Assembly (NCBI GenBank): GCA_963974105.1
Contig: CAXBBG010000001.1
Location: 445,256 to 509,255 of the forward strand
Direction: 5' to 3'
Length of the DNA stretch: 64,000 nt
From: an uncultured Magnetococcales bacterium
GTDB taxonomy: Bacteria > Pseudomonadota > Alphaproteobacteria > UBA2136
A program made the translations under genes and the position numbers. The notes under the pieces were generated by a model that was not told where the DNA came from, did not search any database, and worked only from the letters and a program-made list of their open reading frames with translations. Shown here one piece after another: positions 2,496-62,270 of the stretch. How positions within the stretch are numbered: the stretch's first letter is position 1; every line of letters starts with the position of its first letter.

Positions 2496-3902
2496 ATGTC
2501 TTTTATTAAAGGTGATACTGTTGTTGCAATGGCTACTGCGCCATTGGCTGCTGGTGTGGCTGTTATACGGATTTCTGGTCCAAAGGCGAAGGGGATTGTA
2601 AATGAGCTGTGCCCCTCGTTTGCAAATGCTCAGCCTCGGTTTATGCACTATGGAAAATTAATTGATAGAAATTCTACCTTATTAGACGAGACGCTTATGG
2701 TTTACTTCAAAGCACCGCATAGCTTTACAGGTGAGGATGTTGTAGAAATAAACTGTCATGGCGGTGTTGCAGTTGTGGATGGTTTGTTGAATGCATTAAT
2801 GGCAAATGATGGCGTACGTCATGCTGAGGCTGGTGAATTCACAAGACGTGCTTTTATGAATGATAAAATGGATTTAACAGCCGCAGAAGGGGTTGCTGAC
2901 CTTGTTGCAGCGGAGACTGAAGAGCAGAAAAAGCAAGCATTAAGTCAAATGAAAGGTGAGCTGGGTGTTGGTTTTGAGCGTTGGAGGTCACGTATTATAC
3001 ATATGTTAGCGCATAGTGAGGCGGCGATAGATTTCCCAGATGAAGAGTTGGATGTATTGGCTGATGCGGGGGTGAAACTTAAGGTTGATGAGATTATCGC
3101 AGATTTAGAGGCTGCGATTGATACAGATGTTGGTTGTCGTTTACGTGATGGTTTTAAGGTTGTAATAATTGGCAAGCCAAATGCAGGTAAATCAAGTTTA
3201 ACCAATTTGTTAACTGGTAAGGATACAGCTATTGTTAGTGCGATTGAAGGTACAACAAGGGATGTAATTGACACGAGGCTTGATGTGAATGGTTACCCTA
3301 TCATCCTATCGGATACAGCAGGTATCCGTGAAACGCAAGATGAGATTGAAAGGGAAGGTGTTAGTCGCGCTAAACGTAAGGTAGACGAAGCTGATTTAGT
3401 AATATTGGTGACGGATGGCACGCAGTGGCCAGATGTAGATGCGGATCTTGTTGGTTTGTTAAAAGTGAAAAGATCTATGGTAATTTTTAGCAAATCTGAC
3501 AAATTAAACCAAAAGGTAAATTGTGAGGCTGGTTTTGTATTTAACAATAAGGTTGAATTAAAGGGCGAAGAATATCCTGCCTATAGCGTTAACCTGACAG
3601 CCGCTGATTGTTTGCCTGTAATTTTAAATGCTTTGGGTGAGCTTGTTTCAAGTTTGTTTGCCCAAAGTCAGCAAGGGGCAAGGCTTTCAAGGGAGAGGCA
3701 TAGAGAGGCAGTGCGATCGGCTCTTGTGCATTTGTATAGAGCACGTGATTTGTTTGAGGGTAATGATTTTGGTTTGTCTTTAAGTGAGTTGTTGGCTCAA
3801 GACTTGCGTGATGCTGCAGCGGCCATTGGCACCGTGACAGGAAAGACAGATACAGAAGATGTGCTTGATTTAGTATTTAGTACGTTTTGTATTGGTAAAT
3901 AG
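2496..3902 (+). CDS. mnmE: tRNA modification GTPase MnmE (TrmE)
   Basis: Starts MSFIKGDTVVAMATAPLAAGVAVIRISG. G-domain motifs GKPNAGKSSL and DTAG are present, and it ends with the C-terminal CIGK motif. The ORF track begins at a TTG at 2304, but the conserved N-terminus and a 48-bp divergent gap to fpg favour the ATG at 2496. Confidence 0.9.
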   Translation: MSFIKGDTVVAMATAPLAAGVAVIRISGPKAKGIVNELCPSFANAQPRFMHYGKLIDRNSTLLDETLMVYFKAPHSFTGEDVVEINCHGGVAVVDGLLNALMANDGVRHAEAGEFTRRAFMNDKMDLTAAEGVADLVAAETEEQKKQALSQMKGELGVGFERWRSRIIHMLAHSEAAIDFPDEELDVLADAGVKLKVDEIIADLEAAIDTDVGCRLRDGFKVVIIGKPNAGKSSLTNLLTGKDTAIVSAIEGTTRDVIDTRLDVNGYPIILSDTAGIRETQDEIEREGVSRAKRKVDEADLVILVTDGTQWPDVDADLVGLLKVKRSMVIFSKSDKLNQKVNCEAGFVFNNKVELKGEEYPAYSVNLTAADCLPVILNALGELVSSLFAQSQQGARLSRERHREAVRSALVHLYRARDLFEGNDFGLSLSELLAQDLRDAAAAIGTVTGKTDTEDVLDLVFSTFCIGK

Positions 3903-9063: not shown

Positions 9064-11565
<2,502 letters not shown>

Positions 11566-15166: not shown

Positions 15167-16633
15167 TTAGAGGGTTTTGAGGATGTTTTCAAGTAGGTTA
15201 ATATCCTCAGCCATGCTTGTATCTGTATTTTGCAGCTTTTCCACTGTTTTAGCGGCGTGCATGACAGTTGTATGATCGCGCCCACCAAAAGCTTTGCCAA
15301 TTTCTGGGAATGACTTTGTGGTGAGGTGTTTAGCAATGTACATCGCAATTTGCCTTGGGCGTGCCACGGCGCGTGTGCGGCGGCTTGAACTCATATCACT
15401 CACTTTGATATTATAGTATTCCGCTACTTTTTTCTGAATTTCAGCAATCGGCACTTCACGGTCAACGTGTCTAAATAGATCTCTTAACAGGTCTTGCGCG
15501 GTATCGATGGTGATTTCTTGCTGAATAAGAGTGGAATGCGCTGCAATACGGTTAAGCGCGCCTTCAAGCTCACGGATGTTGCTATCAATTTTACTGGCCA
15601 GCATCATCGCTACAGGGCGGGTAAGCTCTATACCTAAGGAGGCTGCTTTTTGGTCTAAAATAGCTAGCCTTGTTTCAAGGTCTGGCTTGTGTACTTCTGT
15701 TGCAAGGCCCCAACCTAAGCGTGAACGCAAGCGGTCTTCAATACCCTGCATTTCGTGTGGTGACTTGTCGGATGTTAGAATAATTTGTTTACGTTCACTC
15801 ACCAAAGATTCAAAGGTGTGGAAAAACTCTTCTTGGGTTGCTTCTTTACCTGCAATAAACTGCACATCATCAATCATTAAAACATCTACATTACGGAAAG
15901 TGCTTTTAAATCCGTGTGTGTTTTTGTTTTTAAGAGCGCTGATAAAGTTGTGTAGGAATTTTTCGGCGCTGATGTACATCACGCGTCGACCTTGTTGGTG
16001 CTGGTTAATGTGCCAGGCAATGGCATGCATAAGGTGTGTTTTACCTAAACCGACGCCACCGTGTAAAATAAATGGATTGTATGCAATGTCAGAACTTTCA
16101 GCAATACGCTTCGCCGCAGCGTAAGCAAATTCGTTGGATTTACCTATCACGAAATTGTCAAAAGTAAAGCGTGGGTCAAGCGGGTTACCTTGGTAAGGCG
16201 CTGGTTTTTGTCCGTGTGATGACATATTTGGTTGTTGCATGTACGGCATGTGCTGCATGTGCGGCTGAACCATAATTGGAGCGGCTTGCATGGGTGCCTG
16301 TTGTGCAGGTGTAGGTGTAGGGGTTTGTGCCTGTGTTTGAACTTGCGCAGGGGCTGGTGGCGGTGTTGGTTCTGTCATGACCGCTTTAACTTTAAGCTCA
16401 AGGGTTACAGAACAGTCTAGCGCTTGCGATAAGCCTTTTTTTATAAGGTGGCTGTAATGGCGTAATACCCAGTCGTGCATAAAACGGGTGGGTACAATAA
16501 CAGTGACGTTTGCGCCTTGCGATGTTGTATAGTCAACTTCTAAAGGGGCAAGCCAGCTCATAAAGCTGTCTTCACCGACTTCATTCTTAAGCCAGTCCCT
16601 TACTTGGGCCCATGATGTTGAGTTGACTGTCAT
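15167..16633 (-). CDS. dnaA: Chromosomal replication initiator DnaA
   Basis: AAA+ region GGVGLGKTHLMHAIAW, a Pro/Gln-rich linker, and the C-terminal DNA-binding helix-turn-helix (RPRQIAMYIAKHLT...GKAFGGRDHTTVMHA). Confidence 0.97.
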   Translation of the reverse strand: MTVNSTSWAQVRDWLKNEVGEDSFMSWLAPLEVDYTTSQGANVTVIVPTRFMHDWVLRHYSHLIKKGLSQALDCSVTLELKVKAVMTEPTPPPAPAQVQTQAQTPTPTPAQQAPMQAAPIMVQPHMQHMPYMQQPNMSSHGQKPAPYQGNPLDPRFTFDNFVIGKSNEFAYAAAKRIAESSDIAYNPFILHGGVGLGKTHLMHAIAWHINQHQQGRRVMYISAEKFLHNFISALKNKNTHGFKSTFRNVDVLMIDDVQFIAGKEATQEEFFHTFESLVSERKQIILTSDKSPHEMQGIEDRLRSRLGWGLATEVHKPDLETRLAILDQKAASLGIELTRPVAMMLASKIDSNIRELEGALNRIAAHSTLIQQEITIDTAQDLLRDLFRHVDREVPIAEIQKKVAEYYNIKVSDMSSSRRTRAVARPRQIAMYIAKHLTTKSFPEIGKAFGGRDHTTVMHAAKTVEKLQNTDTSMAEDINLLENILKTL

Positions 16634-16669
16634 CTTTTATTCGTTACCCTTATATATTAAATAGTCCAT

Positions 16670-16697
16670 AAAAAAAGGCTACCCGAAGATAGCCCTC
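16670..16697 (-). terminator. Rho-independent terminator after rpsT, 35 bp upstream of the dnaA start
   Basis: Minus strand reads GGCTATC-TTCG-GGTAGCC followed by TTTTTTT. Confidence 0.7.
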
Positions 16698-16733
16698 TCA
16701 TTCGCTAAAAAGCGATAAAGTAGAAAAGCTACC

Positions 16734-17000
16734 TTATGCTGTAAGGCCTTTTACGCGTGTGCTTAGGCGAGAAACTTTGCGGTTAGCAGTTTCTTTTTTC
16801 AAAATGCCTTTAGATGCACATTTGTGTAGCTGTGACATTGCTACAGTAAATGTTTTACCGATAGCGTCTTTGTCGCCAGCTTCAATAGCATTTTCAAGTG
16901 CTTTTACAGCTGTACGCATACGTGTACGAACAGCTTTGTTGCGCTCTGTTACAGCTTCTGTTTGACGAATTCTTTTTAGTGCTTGCTTATGATTAGCCAT
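16734..17000 (-). CDS. rpsT: 30S ribosomal protein S20
   Basis: 88 aa, MANHKQALKRIRQTE...NRKVSRLSTRVKGL; basic and of typical S20 length. Confidence 0.9.
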   Translation of the reverse strand: MANHKQALKRIRQTEAVTERNKAVRTRMRTAVKALENAIEAGDKDAIGKTFTVAMSQLHKCASKGILKKETANRKVSRLSTRVKGLTA

Positions 17001-17101
17001 AAGTTAACCTTTCTTTCTTGAAAGTTATACCCTAACTTTGATTGTACCATTACAATCAGTGAGCTATTCAACCGAAGTTGTTGGGCTTCATTTGTTTGGG
17101 G

Positions 17102-17174
17102 AATTTACCCTGTGGATAAGTATATGTCAACCAGTAAATGTAAGGGTTGCCGAATTTTATCCACAGGGTAAATT
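17102..17174. promoter_or_regulatory. Perfect 18-bp inverted repeat carrying two consensus DnaA boxes
   Basis: AATTTACCCTGTGGATAA (17102-17119), a 37-nt spacer, then TTATCCACAGGGTAAATT (17157-17174). TGTGGATAA and TTATCCACA are exact DnaA-box consensus. A separate palindrome TGATTGTA-ccat-TACAATCA lies at 17039-17058. Confidence 0.6.
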
Positions 17175-17213
17175 TAACGGTTTGGTTAAATATGGCTCTT
17201 TATGAGGTTTTTG

Positions 17214-18806
17214 CTATGCTATGTACCCCATATCACCAAAAGTGATATCTTCTTCCAACTCTTCACTTACACCAATAATGCTTGCAGGGTCAACAAAGTC
17301 ACCTTTTTCAAAAATAGACAGTGCGTCTTGTACGTAAGCTTCACGGCGCATACCACAAAGCACGGATGTCACACCAGGGACGCTGGCGATACTATTCATG
17401 GCAATTTGCTGTAAAGGTGCATCTTTCCATGATTCCGGAAGTCTATCACGGATCTCTATTTCTAGGATTTTTAGATTTTCAGCATCTTTTTCACGCATGT
17501 CTTTGCGTAAAGCATCTAGTAGTGTTTTTGCTTGCTTGCTAAAGTTCTCTCGTACAAGAGAAAGTGAATCGGCAATTTCTGGCTGAGAAATGACAATTTC
17601 TTCAATCACGTGATTCATCATAGCAATGTGCGGTGTGAAAAACATGGTGGACATATGGTCAAGTTGAACGCTGTTACTGACTTCTTCTAAGATTTCGTCA
17701 CCGTGAGCTGTAAAGCTGAACAAAGGTTGCTCGTCAATAGACGGCCACCCATTTAAAACCTTGTTTAAAACATCTTCAGTTTGTTTAATGGCGCCCAATG
17801 CCTCTTCAACAGTCGGCACATTTTTTTCGTCGGCGCTGTAGTTGCTTGATAATCGGTAAACACCGCCAGACATTGGAAAGGCGTTTAAAGGACGGTTTGC
17901 AAGCACGTTGATGTGCATGCGGCTTGCTAGTTCTAAGGTTGAAACACGCTCTTCGCCGTCAATAATTTGTGCGGTCGTGTTTTCTGTTTTAAGTGCGCCG
18001 AGCTCTAATAAATTAAAGGGCATTTCAATGCATCGAAACGCTGAACGTTTTTTACGTCCCCACGCAGTTGCTGCTGCATTCGTTGCGGCTTTAAAAACAA
18101 GGGCAAGGTCAGTGTGGTCTCCTTGGTCGCTTTCAACACCAAAAGTGTTAGAAGAAACGCCATAACAGCCAATAACACCTTCCTTAACCTTAAGCTCTAA
18201 AAATTCAAAAGCTTTTTCAATGCGGCTATAATATAAGTTTTTAAGGTCGTCAGTTAAAACGCCTTCGGTTTGGCTAATAGCATGGCCAATAAAATATTCT
18301 GGATTATGAAGAAGGTAGCAGTCGATATGCTCAACATTTAAATTTTCTAAAGAGCTTTTAAGTTGGCGCTCAAGGTTTGTAGGGTGAATGCTGTGCCATA
18401 GTTGATCGTTGATTTTAACGATTTCTTCTATGTGTGCATTTTCAGCTTCAAGCAAGCTTGTGCCTTGTAAGTATCCGCCTTTTGTGACAATGACGATTTC
18501 TTCACGATTTAAAAAGTTTTTTGTGTGTAGTTCTGTCAGTGTTTCACCAATAAACCTTTCACTGTCACCGTCCATGTAGTTACTGGAAGTGTCGATAATA
18601 TTTACACCATTTAAAAGAGCTTTTTTTAAGGCAGCCCTTTGAATGCTATCGCCAATTGTTCTGTAGGCACCAAAACCAACTTTGGATATAGTGAATCCTT
18701 CAAATATACGCCAACTGTTTGGGCTAATTTTTGGGTTATGCTGCCACATACGGTCTGCATAATTTTTTGTTGCTGTTTCGGTTGCTTGTCCAGGTATTCT
18801 TTGCAT
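17214..18806 (-). CDS. Aldo-keto reductase family oxidoreductase (with ~100-aa internal insertion)
   Basis: N-terminal AKR (beta/alpha)8 signature (FGAYRTIGDS...GVNIIDTSSNYMDGDSERFIGE) and a C-terminal AKR end motif (SVPGVTSVLCGMRREAYVQD). At 530 aa it is longer than a typical AKR. Confidence 0.65.
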   Translation of the reverse strand: MQRIPGQATETATKNYADRMWQHNPKISPNSWRIFEGFTISKVGFGAYRTIGDSIQRAALKKALLNGVNIIDTSSNYMDGDSERFIGETLTELHTKNFLNREEIVIVTKGGYLQGTSLLEAENAHIEEIVKINDQLWHSIHPTNLERQLKSSLENLNVEHIDCYLLHNPEYFIGHAISQTEGVLTDDLKNLYYSRIEKAFEFLELKVKEGVIGCYGVSSNTFGVESDQGDHTDLALVFKAATNAAATAWGRKKRSAFRCIEMPFNLLELGALKTENTTAQIIDGEERVSTLELASRMHINVLANRPLNAFPMSGGVYRLSSNYSADEKNVPTVEEALGAIKQTEDVLNKVLNGWPSIDEQPLFSFTAHGDEILEEVSNSVQLDHMSTMFFTPHIAMMNHVIEEIVISQPEIADSLSLVRENFSKQAKTLLDALRKDMREKDAENLKILEIEIRDRLPESWKDAPLQQIAMNSIASVPGVTSVLCGMRREAYVQDALSIFEKGDFVDPASIIGVSEELEEDITFGDMGYIA

Positions 18807-24202: not shown

Positions 24203-24216
24203 GAACAGAAATGTGA

Positions 24217-24261
24217 ACAGATCCGCCTTATATGTTATAATGAGGCGGATCTGTTTTTTAA
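24217..24261 (+). terminator. Rho-independent terminator
   Basis: 11-bp stem ACAGATCCGCC/GGCGGATCTGT with a 16-nt loop, followed by TTTTTT. Confidence 0.65.
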
Positions 24262-29035: not shown

Positions 29036-29056
29036 CTTCTTGAATAAAAACTTTTT

Positions 29057-29116
29057 TAGCACTCGCTGCATGTAAGTGCTAAAAAAGTTCTGGCACTTTG
29101 TTGAAAAGAGTGCTAA
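29057..29116 (+). promoter_or_regulatory. Two tandem CIRCE-like HrcA operators upstream of hrcA
   Basis: TTAGCACTC-N9-AAGTGCTAA (29057-29083; one mismatch to the TTAGCACTC-N9-GAGTGCTAA consensus) and CTGGCACTT-N9-GAGTGCTAA (29090-29116; perfect right arm, degenerate left arm). Confidence 0.75.
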
Positions 29117-29162: not shown

Positions 29163-30242
29163 ATGGTTGTTGAGCTTTCAGATCGTTCGCGTGTCGTCTT
29201 AAGCGATATCGTTGATATTTACACTGAAACAGGCCAACCTGTGGGTTCTAAGGCGCTTTGTGAAAGATCTAAACTTGACCTTTCAGCGGCTTCCTTGCGT
29301 AATGTTATGTCTGACTTAGAAAAAAATGGCTATTTGGAAAGTTTGCACACTTCAGGTGGGCGTGCGCCTACAGAAGCAGGTTTTCGTTATTACACACAAA
29401 GTATGGTTGAAGTGCAAGAAGACTTGATTGGAGATGATTTAAAGGCGCAAATTTTAGCGCGTATTTCTGATGAGAAATCTTTGAAAGAAACAATTGATGA
29501 CCTTTCTATGTTTTTAGGGGAAATGACAGCCTGTACAGGTGTTGTAACTGCGCCTAAGTTTGATATGGAAACTTTAGATCAATTAGAGTTTTTACGTTTA
29601 AGTGGTGACCGTGTGCTGGCAATTATGGTGACAAAGAGCGGTGAAATTGAAAACCGCATTATTCACGTACCTGCCGATATTTCTATTGAAAAATTAAATG
29701 AGAGTTCAAAGCATTTACGCGAAGTTGTGGGTGGTAAAACCCTTTCAGACGCACGTGTTCTTATGATGCAGGAATTGATGGAACATAAAAATCATGTGGA
29801 TAACATGATGGATGAAATGATGCAGGTTGCAGACGAGTGGGCAGAGCCTAAAGCTACGGATACAGCATTGGTTGTTTCAGGCACACAAAACTTGTTCCAA
29901 TATCCAGAACTTGTGCGCGACCAACTTAAAAGCTTGTTCAAAGCTTTTGAAGAAAAACGCATGTTAATGGCCTTAATGAATGAAGTTTCTAAAGGTGAAG
30001 GCGTGCAGATTTTTGTAGGCACTGATTGCGGTATGCAAGATGTAAGTAGTTGCTCAATGGTGAGCACTTCTTACGGCAGTGCCGATAAAACAATTGTAGG
30101 GACGCTTGGGGTTGTTGGTCCGATGCGTATGAATTATAAAAGAGCGGTTCAGCTTGTTGACTATACAGGGAAAGTTCTCAGTAAAGTTATTGAAAAGCGT
30201 GGATTAGAGATAAGTCATCCGATGACTGAAATAAAAGGATAG
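29163..30242 (+). CDS. hrcA: Heat-inducible transcription repressor HrcA
   Basis: N-terminal winged helix (VLSDIVDIYTETGQPVGSKAL) and HrcA C-terminal domain at typical length, located upstream of grpE. Confidence 0.9.
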   Translation: MVVELSDRSRVVLSDIVDIYTETGQPVGSKALCERSKLDLSAASLRNVMSDLEKNGYLESLHTSGGRAPTEAGFRYYTQSMVEVQEDLIGDDLKAQILARISDEKSLKETIDDLSMFLGEMTACTGVVTAPKFDMETLDQLEFLRLSGDRVLAIMVTKSGEIENRIIHVPADISIEKLNESSKHLREVVGGKTLSDARVLMMQELMEHKNHVDNMMDEMMQVADEWAEPKATDTALVVSGTQNLFQYPELVRDQLKSLFKAFEEKRMLMALMNEVSKGEGVQIFVGTDCGMQDVSSCSMVSTSYGSADKTIVGTLGVVGPMRMNYKRAVQLVDYTGKVLSKVIEKRGLEISHPMTEIKG

Positions 30243-60238: not shown

Positions 60239-60880
60239 ATGTTAATGGGTCCAGAATATGTTCCTGAAGGGGCAACAAAGGCTGTTGTTTTATTACATGG
60301 TTTTGGGAGTGATGGCGATGATTTGTTTTCGCTTGCACCTTACATTGCACGTGAAGGTCTTGAAGAGGTTGCTTTTTTTGCGCCAAACGGCCCAAGCATG
60401 ACCGACACAGGTATGGGGTACCAATGGTTTAGCGACAAAGGTTGGACATTTATTGACCGCGAGGGCATCGAAGAGGCAAAAGACTTGCTAGAGTCATATA
60501 TTATCAAACATGTGTGCGGTAATAATGGTATAGATTTTGAAAATGTTGCCATTGTAAGTTTTTCACAAGGGACTATGACTTCTTTATTTGCAGTACCACG
60601 CTTTGAGAAGCCTTTAGCAGGCATTGTTGCTTTAAGTGGGCGTATGATGTGGCATGAAGAGCTCGAGGATTTAGATAGCTACCATAAAGTGCCTGTACAC
60701 TTTATGCACGGTGAAGAAGATGAGGTTGTGGAATGCAACGATAGCTATATTTCGTATAGCGAATTAGAAGGTTTAGATTTTGACCGTTTAAGTATTACTG
60801 TTTTGCCAGAATTAGGGCATGCAATTGATGAGCGCGTCATTAAAGAAACGGCGGCGCATTTAAAGAAAATGCTGAAATAA
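60239..60880 (+). CDS. Phospholipase/carboxylesterase-family alpha/beta hydrolase
   Basis: VVLLHGFGSDGDDL, nucleophile elbow VSFSQGT and C-terminal His (LGHAID), typical of the PF02230-like esterase family. Confidence 0.7.
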   Translation: MLMGPEYVPEGATKAVVLLHGFGSDGDDLFSLAPYIAREGLEEVAFFAPNGPSMTDTGMGYQWFSDKGWTFIDREGIEEAKDLLESYIIKHVCGNNGIDFENVAIVSFSQGTMTSLFAVPRFEKPLAGIVALSGRMMWHEELEDLDSYHKVPVHFMHGEEDEVVECNDSYISYSELEGLDFDRLSITVLPELGHAIDERVIKETAAHLKKMLK

Positions 60881-60911
60881 AAAAAACCTCCCATTCGGGA
60901 GGTTTTTTTTA
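60878..60911. terminator. Bidirectional rho-independent terminator between the esterase and desaturase genes
   Basis: A-run, AACCTCCC-ATTC-GGGAGGTT, then TTTTTTTT. Confidence 0.75.
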
Positions 60912-62270
60912 TTTCGATATAGCTGAAAGTTCAGCACGGTAAAGACGTAAATCTTGCTCAGCTTTTTCTTGGCGTGATTGCCAAAATTTCACAAGAGGAG
61001 AGCCTTCATCTACGAGTGCTTCAATTTTAAGTTTAAAGGAAGTAATCGCAGCTTCCAGCTGTTCAATGAGACAAAACAAAGCCTCTTTATGCTCACCTGT
61101 TAATGAAGTGATTTTATCTTTTGCCAGTCTTAACTCAGCATCAAACTGGCCCTTTAAACTTTCCTTTTGCGTATAAAATTGCTCGGAAAGTTCTAGTAGG
61201 GCGGCTTCAAGTGAAAATAAAACCTGTTTTTGATGCACAGCCATAGCCTCAGCACTTGTGGGCTTTAGTTTATATTTTAATAAACCTAAAATATCAAACA
61301 AATCAATAATACGTGCATGAATATCAAGTACGTACATCAATTTAGCGCGCCATTGTGACTTGTTGCCATCATGTATAATGCCGTGCTCGTAAGAGTAACC
61401 AAAAGCATGATGACCGCTATGGAAACCTTCGCCAAACACAAGTATAGCAACCCACCAATTGTCTTTGGCGGCGCCTGTTTTATGATTTTGATAAACAGCC
61501 TTGCCCCAAATATGGCAGGCGCTATTTACAAAAAATGTAGCGTGTTGGCATGCCATACGGGCACAGTTAATGGTTAAAAATGTAAGCCCTATACTCCAGT
61601 AAATTTCAGATACGTTGTATGCTTGACCTAAAATAAAAGACCAAAAATCAACAGAAATGATAAGTCCTAATAGAACAGGGAATACAGCAGCACAGATAAT
61701 ATACAATGCTAAATAGTTTTTGTTTTGCCAAACAAGCAGAGGGTCTTTTTCAAGTTCTGCGCGTTTTGAAGCGCTATGATTTTCATAGTCAAACTCACCA
61801 ATTTTAATATAACAAAGCCATCCAACATGTGACCAAATAAAACCTTTTAAAGTACTTTTGTACTCGTTGGGTGTATGGTGGTCTTTGCCAGGTATGTCTT
61901 CATTTAAATGGTGCAGCCAATGACGTAAAATCCATGAAATAGCATCGCCTTGTCCTGTGAATGCGCCAGCTAAAACACCATATAAACGTGTTAAAAAGCA
62001 AATAAATTTGGCTGTAGGTGTGTCGTTAAACTCAAACGACTTATGCGTCCAATAACGGTGGTATACACCGATAGAAAGGATACATAATCCATATGTAACC
62101 ACAAACATAGTGATATATTTTAACCAGCCGCCATGTATAAGAAGGGCTGTTAAAAGTGAAGGGACGAACAAAAAAGGACAAACCACTAAAAGTGTAAACA
62201 TAACCCAGTTAAAGGGCGGTAAATGTTTTTGGCTTTTGGGTTTCCCTATAATGGGGGTTAATTTAAACAT
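60909..62270 (-). CDS. Membrane acyl-lipid/acyl-CoA delta-9-type fatty acid desaturase with C-terminal coiled-coil extension
   Basis: His boxes HRYWTH, HWLHH and HSGHHAF in a four-TM context. The ~130 C-terminal residues form a predicted coiled coil not typical of desaturases. The start is the ATG at 62270, with an AGGAGG RBS 8 nt upstream. Confidence 0.7.
   Translation of the reverse strand: MFKLTPIIGKPKSQKHLPPFNWVMFTLLVVCPFLFVPSLLTALLIHGGWLKYITMFVVTYGLCILSIGVYHRYWTHKSFEFNDTPTAKFICFLTRLYGVLAGAFTGQGDAISWILRHWLHHLNEDIPGKDHHTPNEYKSTLKGFIWSHVGWLCYIKIGEFDYENHSASKRAELEKDPLLVWQNKNYLALYIICAAVFPVLLGLIISVDFWSFILGQAYNVSEIYWSIGLTFLTINCARMACQHATFFVNSACHIWGKAVYQNHKTGAAKDNWWVAILVFGEGFHSGHHAFGYSYEHGIIHDGNKSQWRAKLMYVLDIHARIIDLFDILGLLKYKLKPTSAEAMAVHQKQVLFSLEAALLELSEQFYTQKESLKGQFDAELRLAKDKITSLTGEHKEALFCLIEQLEAAITSFKLKIEALVDEGSPLVKFWQSRQEKAEQDLRLYRAELSAISK

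What the first reader, a model, noticed from the sequence alone, without database searches (positions are those of the whole stretch)
17039..17174. Perfect 18-bp inverted repeat with two consensus DnaA boxes, plus an 8-bp palindrome, upstream of rpsT-dnaA
AATTTACCCTGTGGATAA (17102-17119) and TTATCCACAGGGTAAATT (17157-17174) are exact reverse complements and are 37 nt apart. Each contains a perfect DnaA box (TGTGGATAA / TTATCCACA). DnaA boxes conserve only 9 bp independently, so an 18-bp perfect inverted repeat implies extra constraint. A second palindrome, TGATTGTA-ccat-TACAATCA (17039-17058), lies about 40 bp upstream of the rpsT start. I did not find further DnaA boxes in the other dnaA-proximal intergenic regions I scanned by eye, so this does not look like a complete oriC. 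Three readings fit the sequence. The first is an autoregulatory operator where DnaA controls the rpsT-dnaA transcript. The second is one module of a split origin, or a DnaA-titration site like datA. The third is an 18-bp-stem RNA hairpin at the 3' end of the convergent AKR mRNA. The repeat could also be the termini of a tiny 73-bp MITE-like insert.
Basis: seen in the sequence. Interest (0 to 1): 0.6.

Follow-up and report, generated by a model that had tools for sequence, protein, structure and literature searches.

The report
DnaA-box operator in rpsT–dnaA promoter
The inverted repeat is real, but it is best read as two binding sites for the replication initiator DnaA built into the promoter of the ribosomal-protein S20 gene that sits just upstream of dnaA in an uncultured marine alphaproteobacterium. 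That is an ordinary self-regulation switch, not an origin, a mobile element or an RNA hairpin.

Summary
The 18-nt perfect inverted repeat (17102-17119 / 17157-17174, 37-nt gap) and the 8-bp palindrome (17039-17058) are both present and non-random. One detail is wrong: the AKR-like gene is co-directional with rpsT, not convergent.

On the gene (minus) strand the repeat overlaps a near-consensus sigma-70 promoter, TTGACA-17-TAAATT. The rpsT-proximal DnaA box fills the -35/-10 spacer, and the outer 6 nt of that arm are the -10 hexamer. The second box lies 46 bp upstream.

In five related metagenomic lineages (DnaA 73-80% identical), both boxes, the -35, the -10 and the 46-bp spacing are invariant. 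The outer part of the distal arm changes without compensation, so there is no sign of selection for pairing. More distant relatives keep the box in the spacer but move or lose the second box.

GC skew at four-fold sites has one sign across the window, and only two boxes occur here, so this is not oriC.

Best reading: a DnaA operator on the rpsT promoter, probably with dnaA read-through, acting by autorepression. This is a new member of a known kind.

The small palindrome is a 5'-UTR hairpin with strong covariation, a candidate S20 leader. Binding, the transcription start and co-transcription are inferred, not shown.

The parts
17157..17174 (-). Distal (upstream) arm of the inverted repeat. On the gene strand it reads AATTTACCCTGTGGATAA. 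The DnaA box is at 17157-17165, about -70 to -62 from the inferred start.
   Evidence: In alignment A1 the box is invariant at 9/9 positions, the CC(T) flank is conserved, and the outer 9 nt are invariant at only 4/9.
17102..17119 (-). Proximal arm. On the gene strand it reads TTATCCACAGGGTAAATT. It consists of the DnaA box (17111-17119, about -24 to -16), GGG, and the -10 hexamer.
   Evidence: The box is invariant at 9/9 positions and the -10 at 6/6 in relatives.
17125..17130 (-). -35 hexamer TTGACA, inside the 37-nt gap of the repeat.
   Evidence: The promoter scan found TTGACA-17-TAAATT, 10 of 12 matches. It is the only promoter-like site in 16400-17500 on either strand. The same site is found in L087. 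It is invariant at 6/6 positions.
17102..17107 (-). -10 hexamer TAAATT, which is the outer 6 nt of the proximal arm. It is followed by a C-rich discriminator. The inferred start is near 17095.
   Evidence: The start position is inferred from the usual -10 to +1 spacing and is not measured.
17039..17065 (-). 5'-UTR element: the AGCTCACT motif, of which GCTCAC is invariant in all nine sequences (17058-17065), followed by an 8-bp hairpin (17039-17058). Candidate rpsT (S20) leader.
   Evidence: 6 of 8 pairs change on both sides. 93.8% of cells are paired, against 67% in shuffles and 25-52% in slid controls. RNAalifold on 9 sequences reaching down to 55% DnaA identity gives 6 pairs, all with compensatory changes, and GCTCAC is invariant. 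No Rfam match.
16734..17000 (-). rpsT (ribosomal protein S20, 88 aa).
   Evidence: Pfam PF01649, E = 2e-27.
16670..16694 (-). Terminator-like hairpin GGCUAUC-UUCG-GGUAGCC followed by U7, between rpsT and dnaA. Probably an attenuator.
   Evidence: Fold. The hairpin and U-run are conserved in 5 lineages, with an A-U to G-C exchange. It is absent in L090, where the gap is 30 nt. The simple terminator scan did not flag it.
15167..16633 (-). dnaA (488 aa). The DNA-binding domain IV keeps the E. coli box-contacting residues.
   Evidence: Pfam. Alignment to 1J1V, E = 3e-29, with RRxR, P, and the RDHTT..H motif identical.
17174..17189 (-). Conserved palindrome TTAAC-N6-GTTAA abutting the distal arm. 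Unassigned; possibly the site of a second regulator.
   Evidence: GTTAA and TTnAA are invariant in A1. The same motif lies upstream of the L091 promoter. The binding factor is unknown.
17214..18806 (-). Upstream AKR-domain gene (530 aa), co-directional with rpsT.
   Evidence: The synteny AKR-rpsT-dnaA-dnaN-recF is kept in L001 and L084-L089.

Best explanation
The repeat is the operator region of the sigma-70-type promoter that drives rpsT and, by read-through of a conserved attenuator-like terminator, most likely dnaA.

Two consensus, presumably high-affinity DnaA boxes face each other 46 bp apart. The proximal box occupies the 17-bp spacer between -35 (TTGACA) and -10 (TAAATT). Bound DnaA should therefore exclude RNA polymerase and repress the promoter, giving negative autoregulation. 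The distal box at about -66 probably strengthens occupancy through DnaA-DnaA contacts, or modulates the promoter in some other way.

The 18-nt perfection is a by-product of overlapping elements. Twelve nt (CCCTGTGGATAA) are the box plus a flank that is identical to E. coli oriC box R1. The outer 6 nt of the proximal arm are the -10 hexamer. The outer part of the distal arm overlaps another conserved motif and is probably the remnant of an ancestral inverted duplication.

Shown here: the sequences, the promoter match, the conservation pattern, the absence of covariation, the absence of origin signatures, and conserved DNA-contact residues in DnaA. Inferred: DnaA binding, the direction of the effect (repression), the transcription start, and co-transcription of dnaA.
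For: - Promoter: TTGACA-17-TAAATT, 10/12 matches, is the only promoter-like site in 1.1 kb on either strand. The same site is found in L087.
- Conservation footprint in 6 distinct orthologous sequences (DnaA 73-100% identical): both boxes 9/9 invariant, -35 6/6, -10 6/6. By contrast the 5 nt between the -35 and the box are 0/5 invariant, the rest of the spacer 12/26, and the rest of the intergenic region 51/147.
- The box-to-box distance is exactly 46 bp in all five close lineages.
- The register TTGAC(A/G)-N5-TTATCCACA-N3-(-10) is kept in L090 (65%) and L091 (63%), although the second box moves to -82 or to +33. L092 and L094 (55-56%) keep one box about 20-27 nt upstream of the -35.
- The box follows the rpsT promoter, not the AKR gene, when other genes intervene.
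- DnaA domain IV is 1J1V-like, with the contact residues conserved.
- CCCTGTGGATAA is identical to the box in the E. coli mnmG-mioC (oriC) region, present in 5425 of 5426 genomes.
- No other promoter-like site lies between the rpsT start and dnaA.
- The rpsT-dnaA gap is about 100 nt in this clade and 30 nt in L090, which favours co-transcription.
- DnaA autorepression through boxes in its own promoter is established in E. coli, B. subtilis and others (PMC8203912).
Against: - There is no binding, transcription-start or expression data.
- A conserved hairpin with a U7 run lies between rpsT and dnaA. The promoter may therefore mainly control S20, and dnaA could have an undetected promoter inside rpsT.
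- In Caulobacter, dnaA has its own promoter in the rpsT-dnaA intergenic region, and DnaA's role there is unclear (PMC4489657, PMC8203912).
- About 80 other alphaproteobacterial rpsT-dnaA loci lack consensus boxes at rpsT, so this is a clade-specific solution.
- DnaA can also activate promoters. The distal box could be an activator site.
Confidence: 0.72

Rival explanations
1. RNA (or DNA) hairpin: the 18-bp stem forms at the 3' end of the upstream AKR mRNA and acts as a terminator or stabiliser.
For: The predicted hairpin is strong: -32.8 kcal/mol, z = -6.15 against shuffles. It begins 39 nt after the AKR stop, on the transcribed strand.
Against: No U-tract follows the stem; the sequence continues CCCCAAAC. 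None of the 18 pairs shows a compensatory change: 12 never vary and 5 depart only by broken pairs, and the observed values equal the shuffles. The stem shrinks to 11-13 contiguous bp in L001, L084 and L085. The spacing and order of the boxes change in L090 and L091, and only one box remains in L092 and L094. The invariant positions spell protein-binding consensus sequences (DnaA box, -35, -10).
Confidence: 0.07
2. Replication-control DNA: one module of a bipartite oriC, or a datA- or DARS-like site that titrates or recycles DnaA.
For: Two perfect boxes will bind DnaA whatever else they do. The locus is next to dnaA, where many bacteria keep oriC. 22 unrelated metagenomic hits of the same inverted box pair lie beside dnaA genes.
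Against: There are only two boxes, plus one site with 2 mismatches, in the 213-bp intergenic region, and no cluster elsewhere in the window's intergenic DNA. Bulk GC skew stays positive, and four-fold-site skew is positive on the plus strand in 53 of 55 genes on both sides of the locus. The window therefore lies on one replichore and the rpsT-dnaA-dnaN-recF genes (and the probable gyrB) are read head-on. No AT-rich unwinding element is evident (intergenic GC 0.36 against about 0.40 for the window). The boxes are locked to promoter hexamers.
Confidence: 0.06
3. Miniature mobile element (MITE-like, 73 bp) with 18-bp terminal inverted repeats.
For: Perfect terminal repeats of a typical size. A quite different dispersed palindromic family that carries DnaA-box arms does exist in other metagenomes.
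Against: There is no other copy in 64 kb, even allowing 3 mismatches. There is no flanking direct duplication: GTTA on one side, CCCC on the other. The unit is present at the same site in all five close lineages, has diverged in step with its flanks, and holds the promoter's -35. None of 119 metagenomic loci matched by the core pattern belongs to this unit.
Confidence: 0.02
4. The promoter and the boxes are as in the main reading, but DnaA activates the promoter, or activates from the distal box and represses from the spacer box. This would couple S20 synthesis positively to initiator level.
For: DnaA acts as an activator at some promoters (PMC8203912). The distal box at about -66 is at a position typical of upstream activators. 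L092, L094 and L043 carry boxes only upstream of the -35.
Against: A protein bound between -24 and -16, within the spacer, is expected to hinder RNA polymerase. This is inference from general promoter mechanics and was not tested.
Confidence: 0.12

Closest known systems
E. coli dnaA promoter region: a consensus DnaA box between dnaAp1 and dnaAp2, giving autorepression (PMC8203912)
   Same: A consensus TTATCCACA box sits inside the promoter region of the transcription unit that encodes DnaA. The expected outcome is negative feedback.
   Different: Here the first gene is rpsT. The box lies inside the -35/-10 spacer of a single promoter. A second, inverted box lies 46 bp upstream. There are no GATC or GANTC sites in the region, so methylation or SeqA-type control is unlikely. 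dnaA lies behind a terminator-like hairpin.
E. coli oriC DnaA box R1 (mnmG-mioC intergenic region)
   Same: The 12-nt core CCCTGTGGATAA is identical. The identification of that site as box R1 rests on my own knowledge.
   Different: R1 is part of a multi-box origin with an unwinding element. Here there are two boxes, locked to promoter hexamers, with no origin signature.
Caulobacter crescentus rpsT-dnaA locus
   Same: The gene order rpsT-dnaA is the same, and it is seen in 87 of the 89 loci then held: 78 of 80 from the genome collection plus the 9 close-relative loci.
   Different: In Caulobacter the dnaA promoter lies in the rpsT-dnaA intergenic region and gives a 155-nt leader (PMC4489657). 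Control involves methylation and an element upstream of the -35, and DnaA's own role is unclear (PMC6393856, PMC8203912). In the window's clade the gap is about 100 nt, is mostly terminator, and has no boxes; the boxes are at the rpsT promoter.
datA and DARS1/2 of E. coli (PMC4585315)
   Same: Non-origin chromosomal DnaA-box sites that act on DnaA.
   Different: Those are multi-box clusters with IHF or Fis sites that are not part of a promoter core. The defining box numbers are not met here.
E. coli rpsT: translational autoregulation by S20 (my own knowledge), and ribosomal-protein leader RNAs in general
   Same: A conserved, covarying hairpin in the 5' UTR of rpsT is where an S20-responsive leader would be expected.
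   Different: There is no Rfam family match. The motif GCUCAC plus hairpin is confined to this clade. Binding by S20 is untested.

Membership tests
DnaA-box operator at a dnaA-operon promoter (autoregulation) | One or more consensus 9-mer DnaA boxes (TTATCCACA or close to it) | tested here: met
   Two perfect boxes at 17111-17119 and 17157-17165.
DnaA-box operator at a dnaA-operon promoter (autoregulation) | The box overlaps or adjoins core promoter elements | tested here: met
   The box fills the spacer of TTGACA-17-TAAATT. The register is conserved in 7 lineages. The promoter itself is predicted, not mapped.
DnaA-box operator at a dnaA-operon promoter (autoregulation) | The promoter transcribes dnaA | tested here: inconclusive
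   No other promoter-like site lies before dnaA, and the intergenic gap is short (100 nt; 30 nt in L090). However, a conserved hairpin with a U7 run intervenes.
DnaA-box operator at a dnaA-operon promoter (autoregulation) | The cognate DnaA has a box-reading domain IV | tested here: met
   Alignment to 1J1V, E = 3e-29, with the contact residues identical. The residue list comes from my own knowledge of Fujikawa et al. 2003.
DnaA-box operator at a dnaA-operon promoter (autoregulation) | DnaA binds the site and changes transcription | not testable with these tools
   This needs EMSA or footprinting, ChIP, and reporter assays.
Chromosomal origin (oriC) or an origin module | A cluster of several DnaA boxes plus an AT-rich unwinding element | tested here: not met
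   Two boxes plus one site with 2 mismatches in 213 bp. Intergenic GC is 0.36, and I noted no AT-rich repeat (not separately searched).
Chromosomal origin (oriC) or an origin module | Strand-composition polarity switches at the site | tested here: not met
   Bulk skew stays positive. Four-fold-site skew is positive in 53 of 55 genes on both sides. Only 64 kb could be examined.
datA- or DARS-type DnaA control site | At least 3-5 boxes in a defined arrangement with IHF or Fis sites, outside any promoter core | tested here: not met
   Two boxes, embedded in a promoter.
Intrinsic terminator or structured RNA | A stem followed by a U-tract, with pairing maintained by compensatory change | tested here: not met
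   No U-tract. 0 of 18 pairs show a compensatory change, and 5 pairs are broken in relatives.
MITE or other small mobile element | Multiple copies, a target-site duplication, and presence/absence among relatives | tested here: not met
   Single copy in the window, no duplication, present in all relatives. The genome-wide copy number could not be tested.
Ribosomal-protein leader RNA (for the 17039-17065 element) | A conserved structure with covariation in the 5' UTR of a ribosomal-protein gene | tested here: met
   6 of 8 pairs and 6 of 6 pairs show compensatory changes.
Ribosomal-protein leader RNA (for the 17039-17065 element) | Bound by the encoded protein, with a feedback effect | not testable with these tools
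   No Rfam family matches. S20 binding is untested.

The most novel reading that the evidence does not exclude
In this uncultured marine alphaproteobacterial clade, dnaA has no promoter of its own. It is made only by read-through of a conserved rpsT terminator, from a promoter that DnaA itself shuts off. Initiator supply would then be hard-wired to ribosomal protein S20 expression through three stacked cis-elements: a DnaA operator in the promoter spacer, a covarying S20-leader hairpin, and an attenuator-terminator. That would be a direct growth-rate-to-replication coupling device, unlike the Caulobacter or E. coli arrangements.
Probability: 0.35. Interest if true: 0.4.

Novelty: new member of a known kind. 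Interest (0 to 1): 0.25.

Why it matters
DnaA autoregulation is textbook in E. coli and B. subtilis, but it is described as unclear in the alphaproteobacterial model Caulobacter (PMC8203912). This clade offers a clean, consensus-sequence example in which the operator sits inside the core promoter of the gene just upstream of dnaA. It gives a simple, testable construct: a 100-bp promoter with two boxes.

It also suggests that S20 synthesis and DnaA supply share one control point in some marine Alphaproteobacteria. For genome annotation, the practical lesson is that a perfect DnaA-box pair next to dnaA is not evidence for oriC. Here composition shows that the origin lies outside the window.

Tried and rejected
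- Exact look-up of the window's DnaA, and of its identical database entry P0001, found no contig. The rest of the genome, an 871-kb contig, could not be read, so the genome-wide copy number and skew were not obtained.
- The one genome-contig scan with DnaA returned only distant relatives of about 50% identity. It was useful as an outgroup. The rpsT-dnaA synteny is near-universal there, but consensus boxes at rpsT are absent, except in L043 and L049.
None came from the window's clade: no S20 gene lies nearby. 61 loci belong to an unrelated dispersed palindrome family. Most of the rest look like ordinary DnaA-box clusters, and 22 of them lie beside dnaA.
- Rfam gave nothing above threshold in 16000-18000 or in the whole window, apart from one tRNA. 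The sub-threshold miRNA hits on the repeat only reflect that it is a hairpin.
- A divergent promoter using the distal arm's mirrored TAAATT was considered and rejected. Its -35 is poor, and the hexamer is lost in L084 and L085 (by eye).
- A second promoter directly upstream of GCTCAC, where it lies in L092 and L094, was considered. No acceptable hexamers are present in the window's clade.
- A CtrA site reading of TTAAC-N6-GTTAA was rejected. The spacing is TTAA-N8-TTAA, not N7, and the half-sites are inverted, not direct.
- An IHF reading of the same motif is not conserved in relatives.
- The simple terminator scan missed the obvious rpsT hairpin with its U7 run. I relied on folding and alignment instead.
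- Literature searches for rpsT together with DnaA box found nothing. A search for the dispersed repeat sequence also found nothing.

Full report
**Observation.** The sequence is as described. Arms 17102-17119 and 17157-17174 are exact reverse complements with 37 nt between them, and each holds a perfect TTATCCACA box. The window contains only three perfect boxes, against 0.65 expected. The 18-mer, even with up to 3 mismatches, occurs nowhere else. The second palindrome at 17039-17058 is also there.

Pfam confirms the following genes, all on the minus strand: S20 (16734-17000), DnaA (15167-16633), DnaN, a RecF-like protein, and an AKR-domain protein (17214-18806). DnaA homologues place the window in an uncultured marine alphaproteobacterial lineage. 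The identical protein sits on an 871-kb contig with NCBI, Logan, ENA and Tara among its sources. The nearest named hits are 'Alphaproteobacteria bacterium' MAGs, and identity to Rhodospirillales is about 50%.

**Anatomy on the gene strand.** Read on the minus strand, the region is:
- AKR stop, then 23 nt;
- the palindrome TTAAC-N6-GTTAA;
- the distal arm AATTTACCC-TGTGGATAA;
- 26 nt, then TTGACA, then 5 nt;
- TTATCCACA-GGG-TAAATT;
- CCCC and so on, then AGCTCACT, the 8-bp hairpin, a Shine-Dalgarno sequence, and the rpsT ATG.

The promoter scan finds exactly one sigma-70-like site in 1.1 kb on both strands. It is TTGACA (17130-17125), a 17-nt spacer, and TAAATT (17107-17102), matching 10 of 12 positions. 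So the proximal DnaA box fills the spacer, the outer six bases of that arm are the -10 hexamer, and the -35 lies inside the 'loop' of the repeat. Taking +1 near 17095 (inferred), the boxes lie at about -24/-16 and -70/-62.

**Comparative evidence.** The locus AKR-rpsT-dnaA-dnaN-recF is syntenic in metagenomic relatives whose DnaA is 73-80% identical (L001, L084-L089). Six distinct orthologous intergenic sequences were aligned and invariant positions counted:

| Element | Invariant positions |
|---|---|
| Distal DnaA box | 9/9 |
| Proximal DnaA box | 9/9 |
| -35 hexamer | 6/6 |
| -10 hexamer | 6/6 |
| 5 nt between the -35 and the proximal box | 0/5 |
| Rest of the spacer | 12/26 |
| Outer flank of the distal arm | 4/9 |
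| Rest of the intergenic region | 51/147 |

The box-to-box distance is 46 bp in every one of these lineages.

When the 18 pairs are treated as a helix, none shows a change on both sides. 12 never vary, and 5 vary only by breaking the pair; the observed values equal the shuffles. The perfect 18-nt symmetry is thus particular to this genome. It is 16/18 in L087, and only 11-13 contiguous nt in L001, L084 and L085. What is conserved is a set of protein-binding consensus sequences.

Further out:
- L090 (65%) and L091 (63%) keep the register TTGACG-N5-TTATCCACA-N3-(-10), but carry the second, inverted box 82 bp upstream or 33 bp downstream.
- L092 and L094 (55-56%) keep a single box about 20-27 nt upstream of the -35.
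- In L091, L092 and L094 other genes separate AKR from rpsT. The box nevertheless stays with the rpsT promoter.

Among the 80 loci from other Alphaproteobacteria, 78 keep rpsT upstream of dnaA, but consensus boxes at rpsT are nearly absent (exceptions L043 and L049). The rpsT-dnaA gap there is usually 400-1400 bp. That fits dnaA having its own promoter in those species, as in Caulobacter (PMC4489657).

**Is DnaA able to read these boxes?** The window's DnaA aligns to the E. coli domain IV-DNA structure 1J1V at E = 3e-29. The RRxR, P and RDHTT..H residues that contact the box (residue list from my own knowledge) are identical. The 12-nt core CCCTGTGGATAA is identical to the box in the E. coli mnmG-mioC (oriC) region. 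This explains 12 of the 18 nt as a box plus its flank.

**Not an origin.** The intergenic region has only the two boxes plus one site with 2 mismatches, and the window has no intergenic box cluster. Bulk GC skew stays positive across the window and tracks gene orientation. At four-fold degenerate sites, plus-strand skew is positive in 53 of 55 genes, on both sides of the locus and whatever the gene's strand. By the usual rule the plus strand is the leading strand throughout. The origin then lies outside the window, and rpsT-dnaA-dnaN-recF, with the probable gyrB, are read head-on. Only 64 kb could be examined.

**Not a mobile element or RNA hairpin.** The unit is single-copy in the window, has no target duplication, is present at the orthologous site in all relatives, and holds a promoter element. 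As RNA it would fold strongly (-32.8 kcal/mol, z = -6.15). But no U-tract follows and no covariation supports it.

**Link to dnaA.** Between rpsT and dnaA lies GGCUAUC-UUCG-GGUAGCC followed by U7 (16694-16670). It is conserved in five lineages with an A-U to G-C exchange and is missing in L090, where the gap is only 30 nt. No promoter-like site lies between the rpsT start and dnaA. I therefore infer that dnaA is expressed by partial read-through, which would give high S20 and low DnaA from one regulated promoter. A weak internal promoter cannot be excluded. No GATC or GANTC sites occur in the region.

**Mechanism proposed.** DnaA binds the two consensus boxes. Occupancy of the spacer box blocks RNA polymerase and lowers rpsT(-dnaA) transcription, giving negative feedback on the initiator. 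The distal box probably stabilises binding. This parallels dnaA autorepression in E. coli and other bacteria (PMC8203912). It differs in the position of the box, in rpsT being the first gene, and in the intervening attenuator. Confidence is about 0.7 that this is a DnaA operator on this promoter. It is lower for the sign of the effect and for co-transcription.

**The small palindrome.** It is a genuine structured element. 6 of 8 pairs change on both sides, and 93.8% of cells are paired, against 67% in shuffles and 25-52% in slid controls. With more distant relatives, RNAalifold gives 6 pairs, all with compensatory changes, and the hairpin is preceded by an invariant GCTCAC. No Rfam family matches it, and it is confined to this clade. 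I read it as a candidate S20 autoregulatory or stability leader in the rpsT 5' UTR.

**Verdict.** This is a new member of a well-known kind of element, of modest interest.

Noticed in passing
L096-L214 (metagenome loci), e.g. L129 7860-7919 and 8700-8759; L099 2564 and 5634; L164 3654 and 6131; L204 2213 and 3053: 61 of the 119 loci hit by the core pattern carry one dispersed palindromic family: GGGGTCAGACCCCTGTGGATAA(G/C)T, then 30-40 variable nt, then A(C/G)TTATCCACAGGGGTCTGACCCC. The arms are about 24 nt and contain a perfect DnaA box, and the innermost stem positions covary (GTC/GAC, CTT/AAG, CTG/CAG). Some contigs hold two copies 0.84-3 kb apart. In L129 one copy sits 11 nt after an alcohol-dehydrogenase gene and the second lies about 0.7 kb beyond the 3' end of rpoC, so the family looks REP-like. 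It is unrelated to the window's lineage. No paper was found with the sequence.
   Followed up: partly
window 17174-17189 (minus strand); also L091 about 3255-3271: The palindrome TTAAC-N6-GTTAA abuts the distal arm. GTTAA and the partner half-site are invariant in the close clade, and the motif recurs upstream of the L091 promoter. It is possibly the site of a second regulator. Its spacing does not fit CtrA.
   Followed up: no
window 16670-16694 (minus strand): A conserved hairpin with a UUCG loop and a U7 run lies between rpsT and dnaA, with one compensatory exchange across relatives. The built-in terminator scan did not report it.
   Followed up: partly
window 1-64000: GC skew at four-fold degenerate sites is positive on the plus strand in 53 of 55 genes, whatever their orientation. 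The whole window is therefore one replichore, and the rpsT-dnaA-dnaN-recF genes, with the probable gyrB (9064-11535), are read head-on to replication.
   Followed up: partly
L004-L083 (other Alphaproteobacteria), 60-90 nt upstream of rpsT: By eye from the printed upstream sequences, rpsT is preceded almost everywhere by a very regular TTGAC(G/T)-N17-TATAA promoter. In many high-GC Rhodospirillales-type loci the -10 is followed by a conserved CGCGCCTTCC. rpsT lies upstream of dnaA in 78 of these 80 loci (87 of the 89 loci then held, including close relatives).
   Followed up: no
L043 2829-2888; L049 about 28 nt upstream of rpsT; L046 rpsT-dnaA gap: Consensus DnaA boxes appear at the rpsT-dnaA locus in scattered other lineages. 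L043 has an inverted pair upstream of a TTGACT-17-TAGTTT promoter. L049 has a box between the promoter and the ATG. L046 (Terasakiella) has a box in the rpsT-dnaA gap.
   Followed up: partly
window 60874-60916, 29049-29092, 24216-24256: Other perfect inverted repeats of 12-19 nt with short loops lie between gene ends, for example 19-nt arms between the convergent genes ending at 60880 and 60909. They look like ordinary terminators. The repeat studied here is the only one with a long (37-nt) gap.
   Followed up: no
window 29795-29803 (minus strand): The third perfect TTATCCACA in the window lies inside a coding region (29163-30242). It lacks the extended flank and is within chance expectation.
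   Followed up: no
window 17096-17101 and relatives: The -10 hexamer is followed by an invariant C and a C-rich stretch (CCCC, CACC or CCAA). This resembles the GC-rich discriminators of stringently controlled ribosomal-protein promoters. That is inference only.
   Followed up: no
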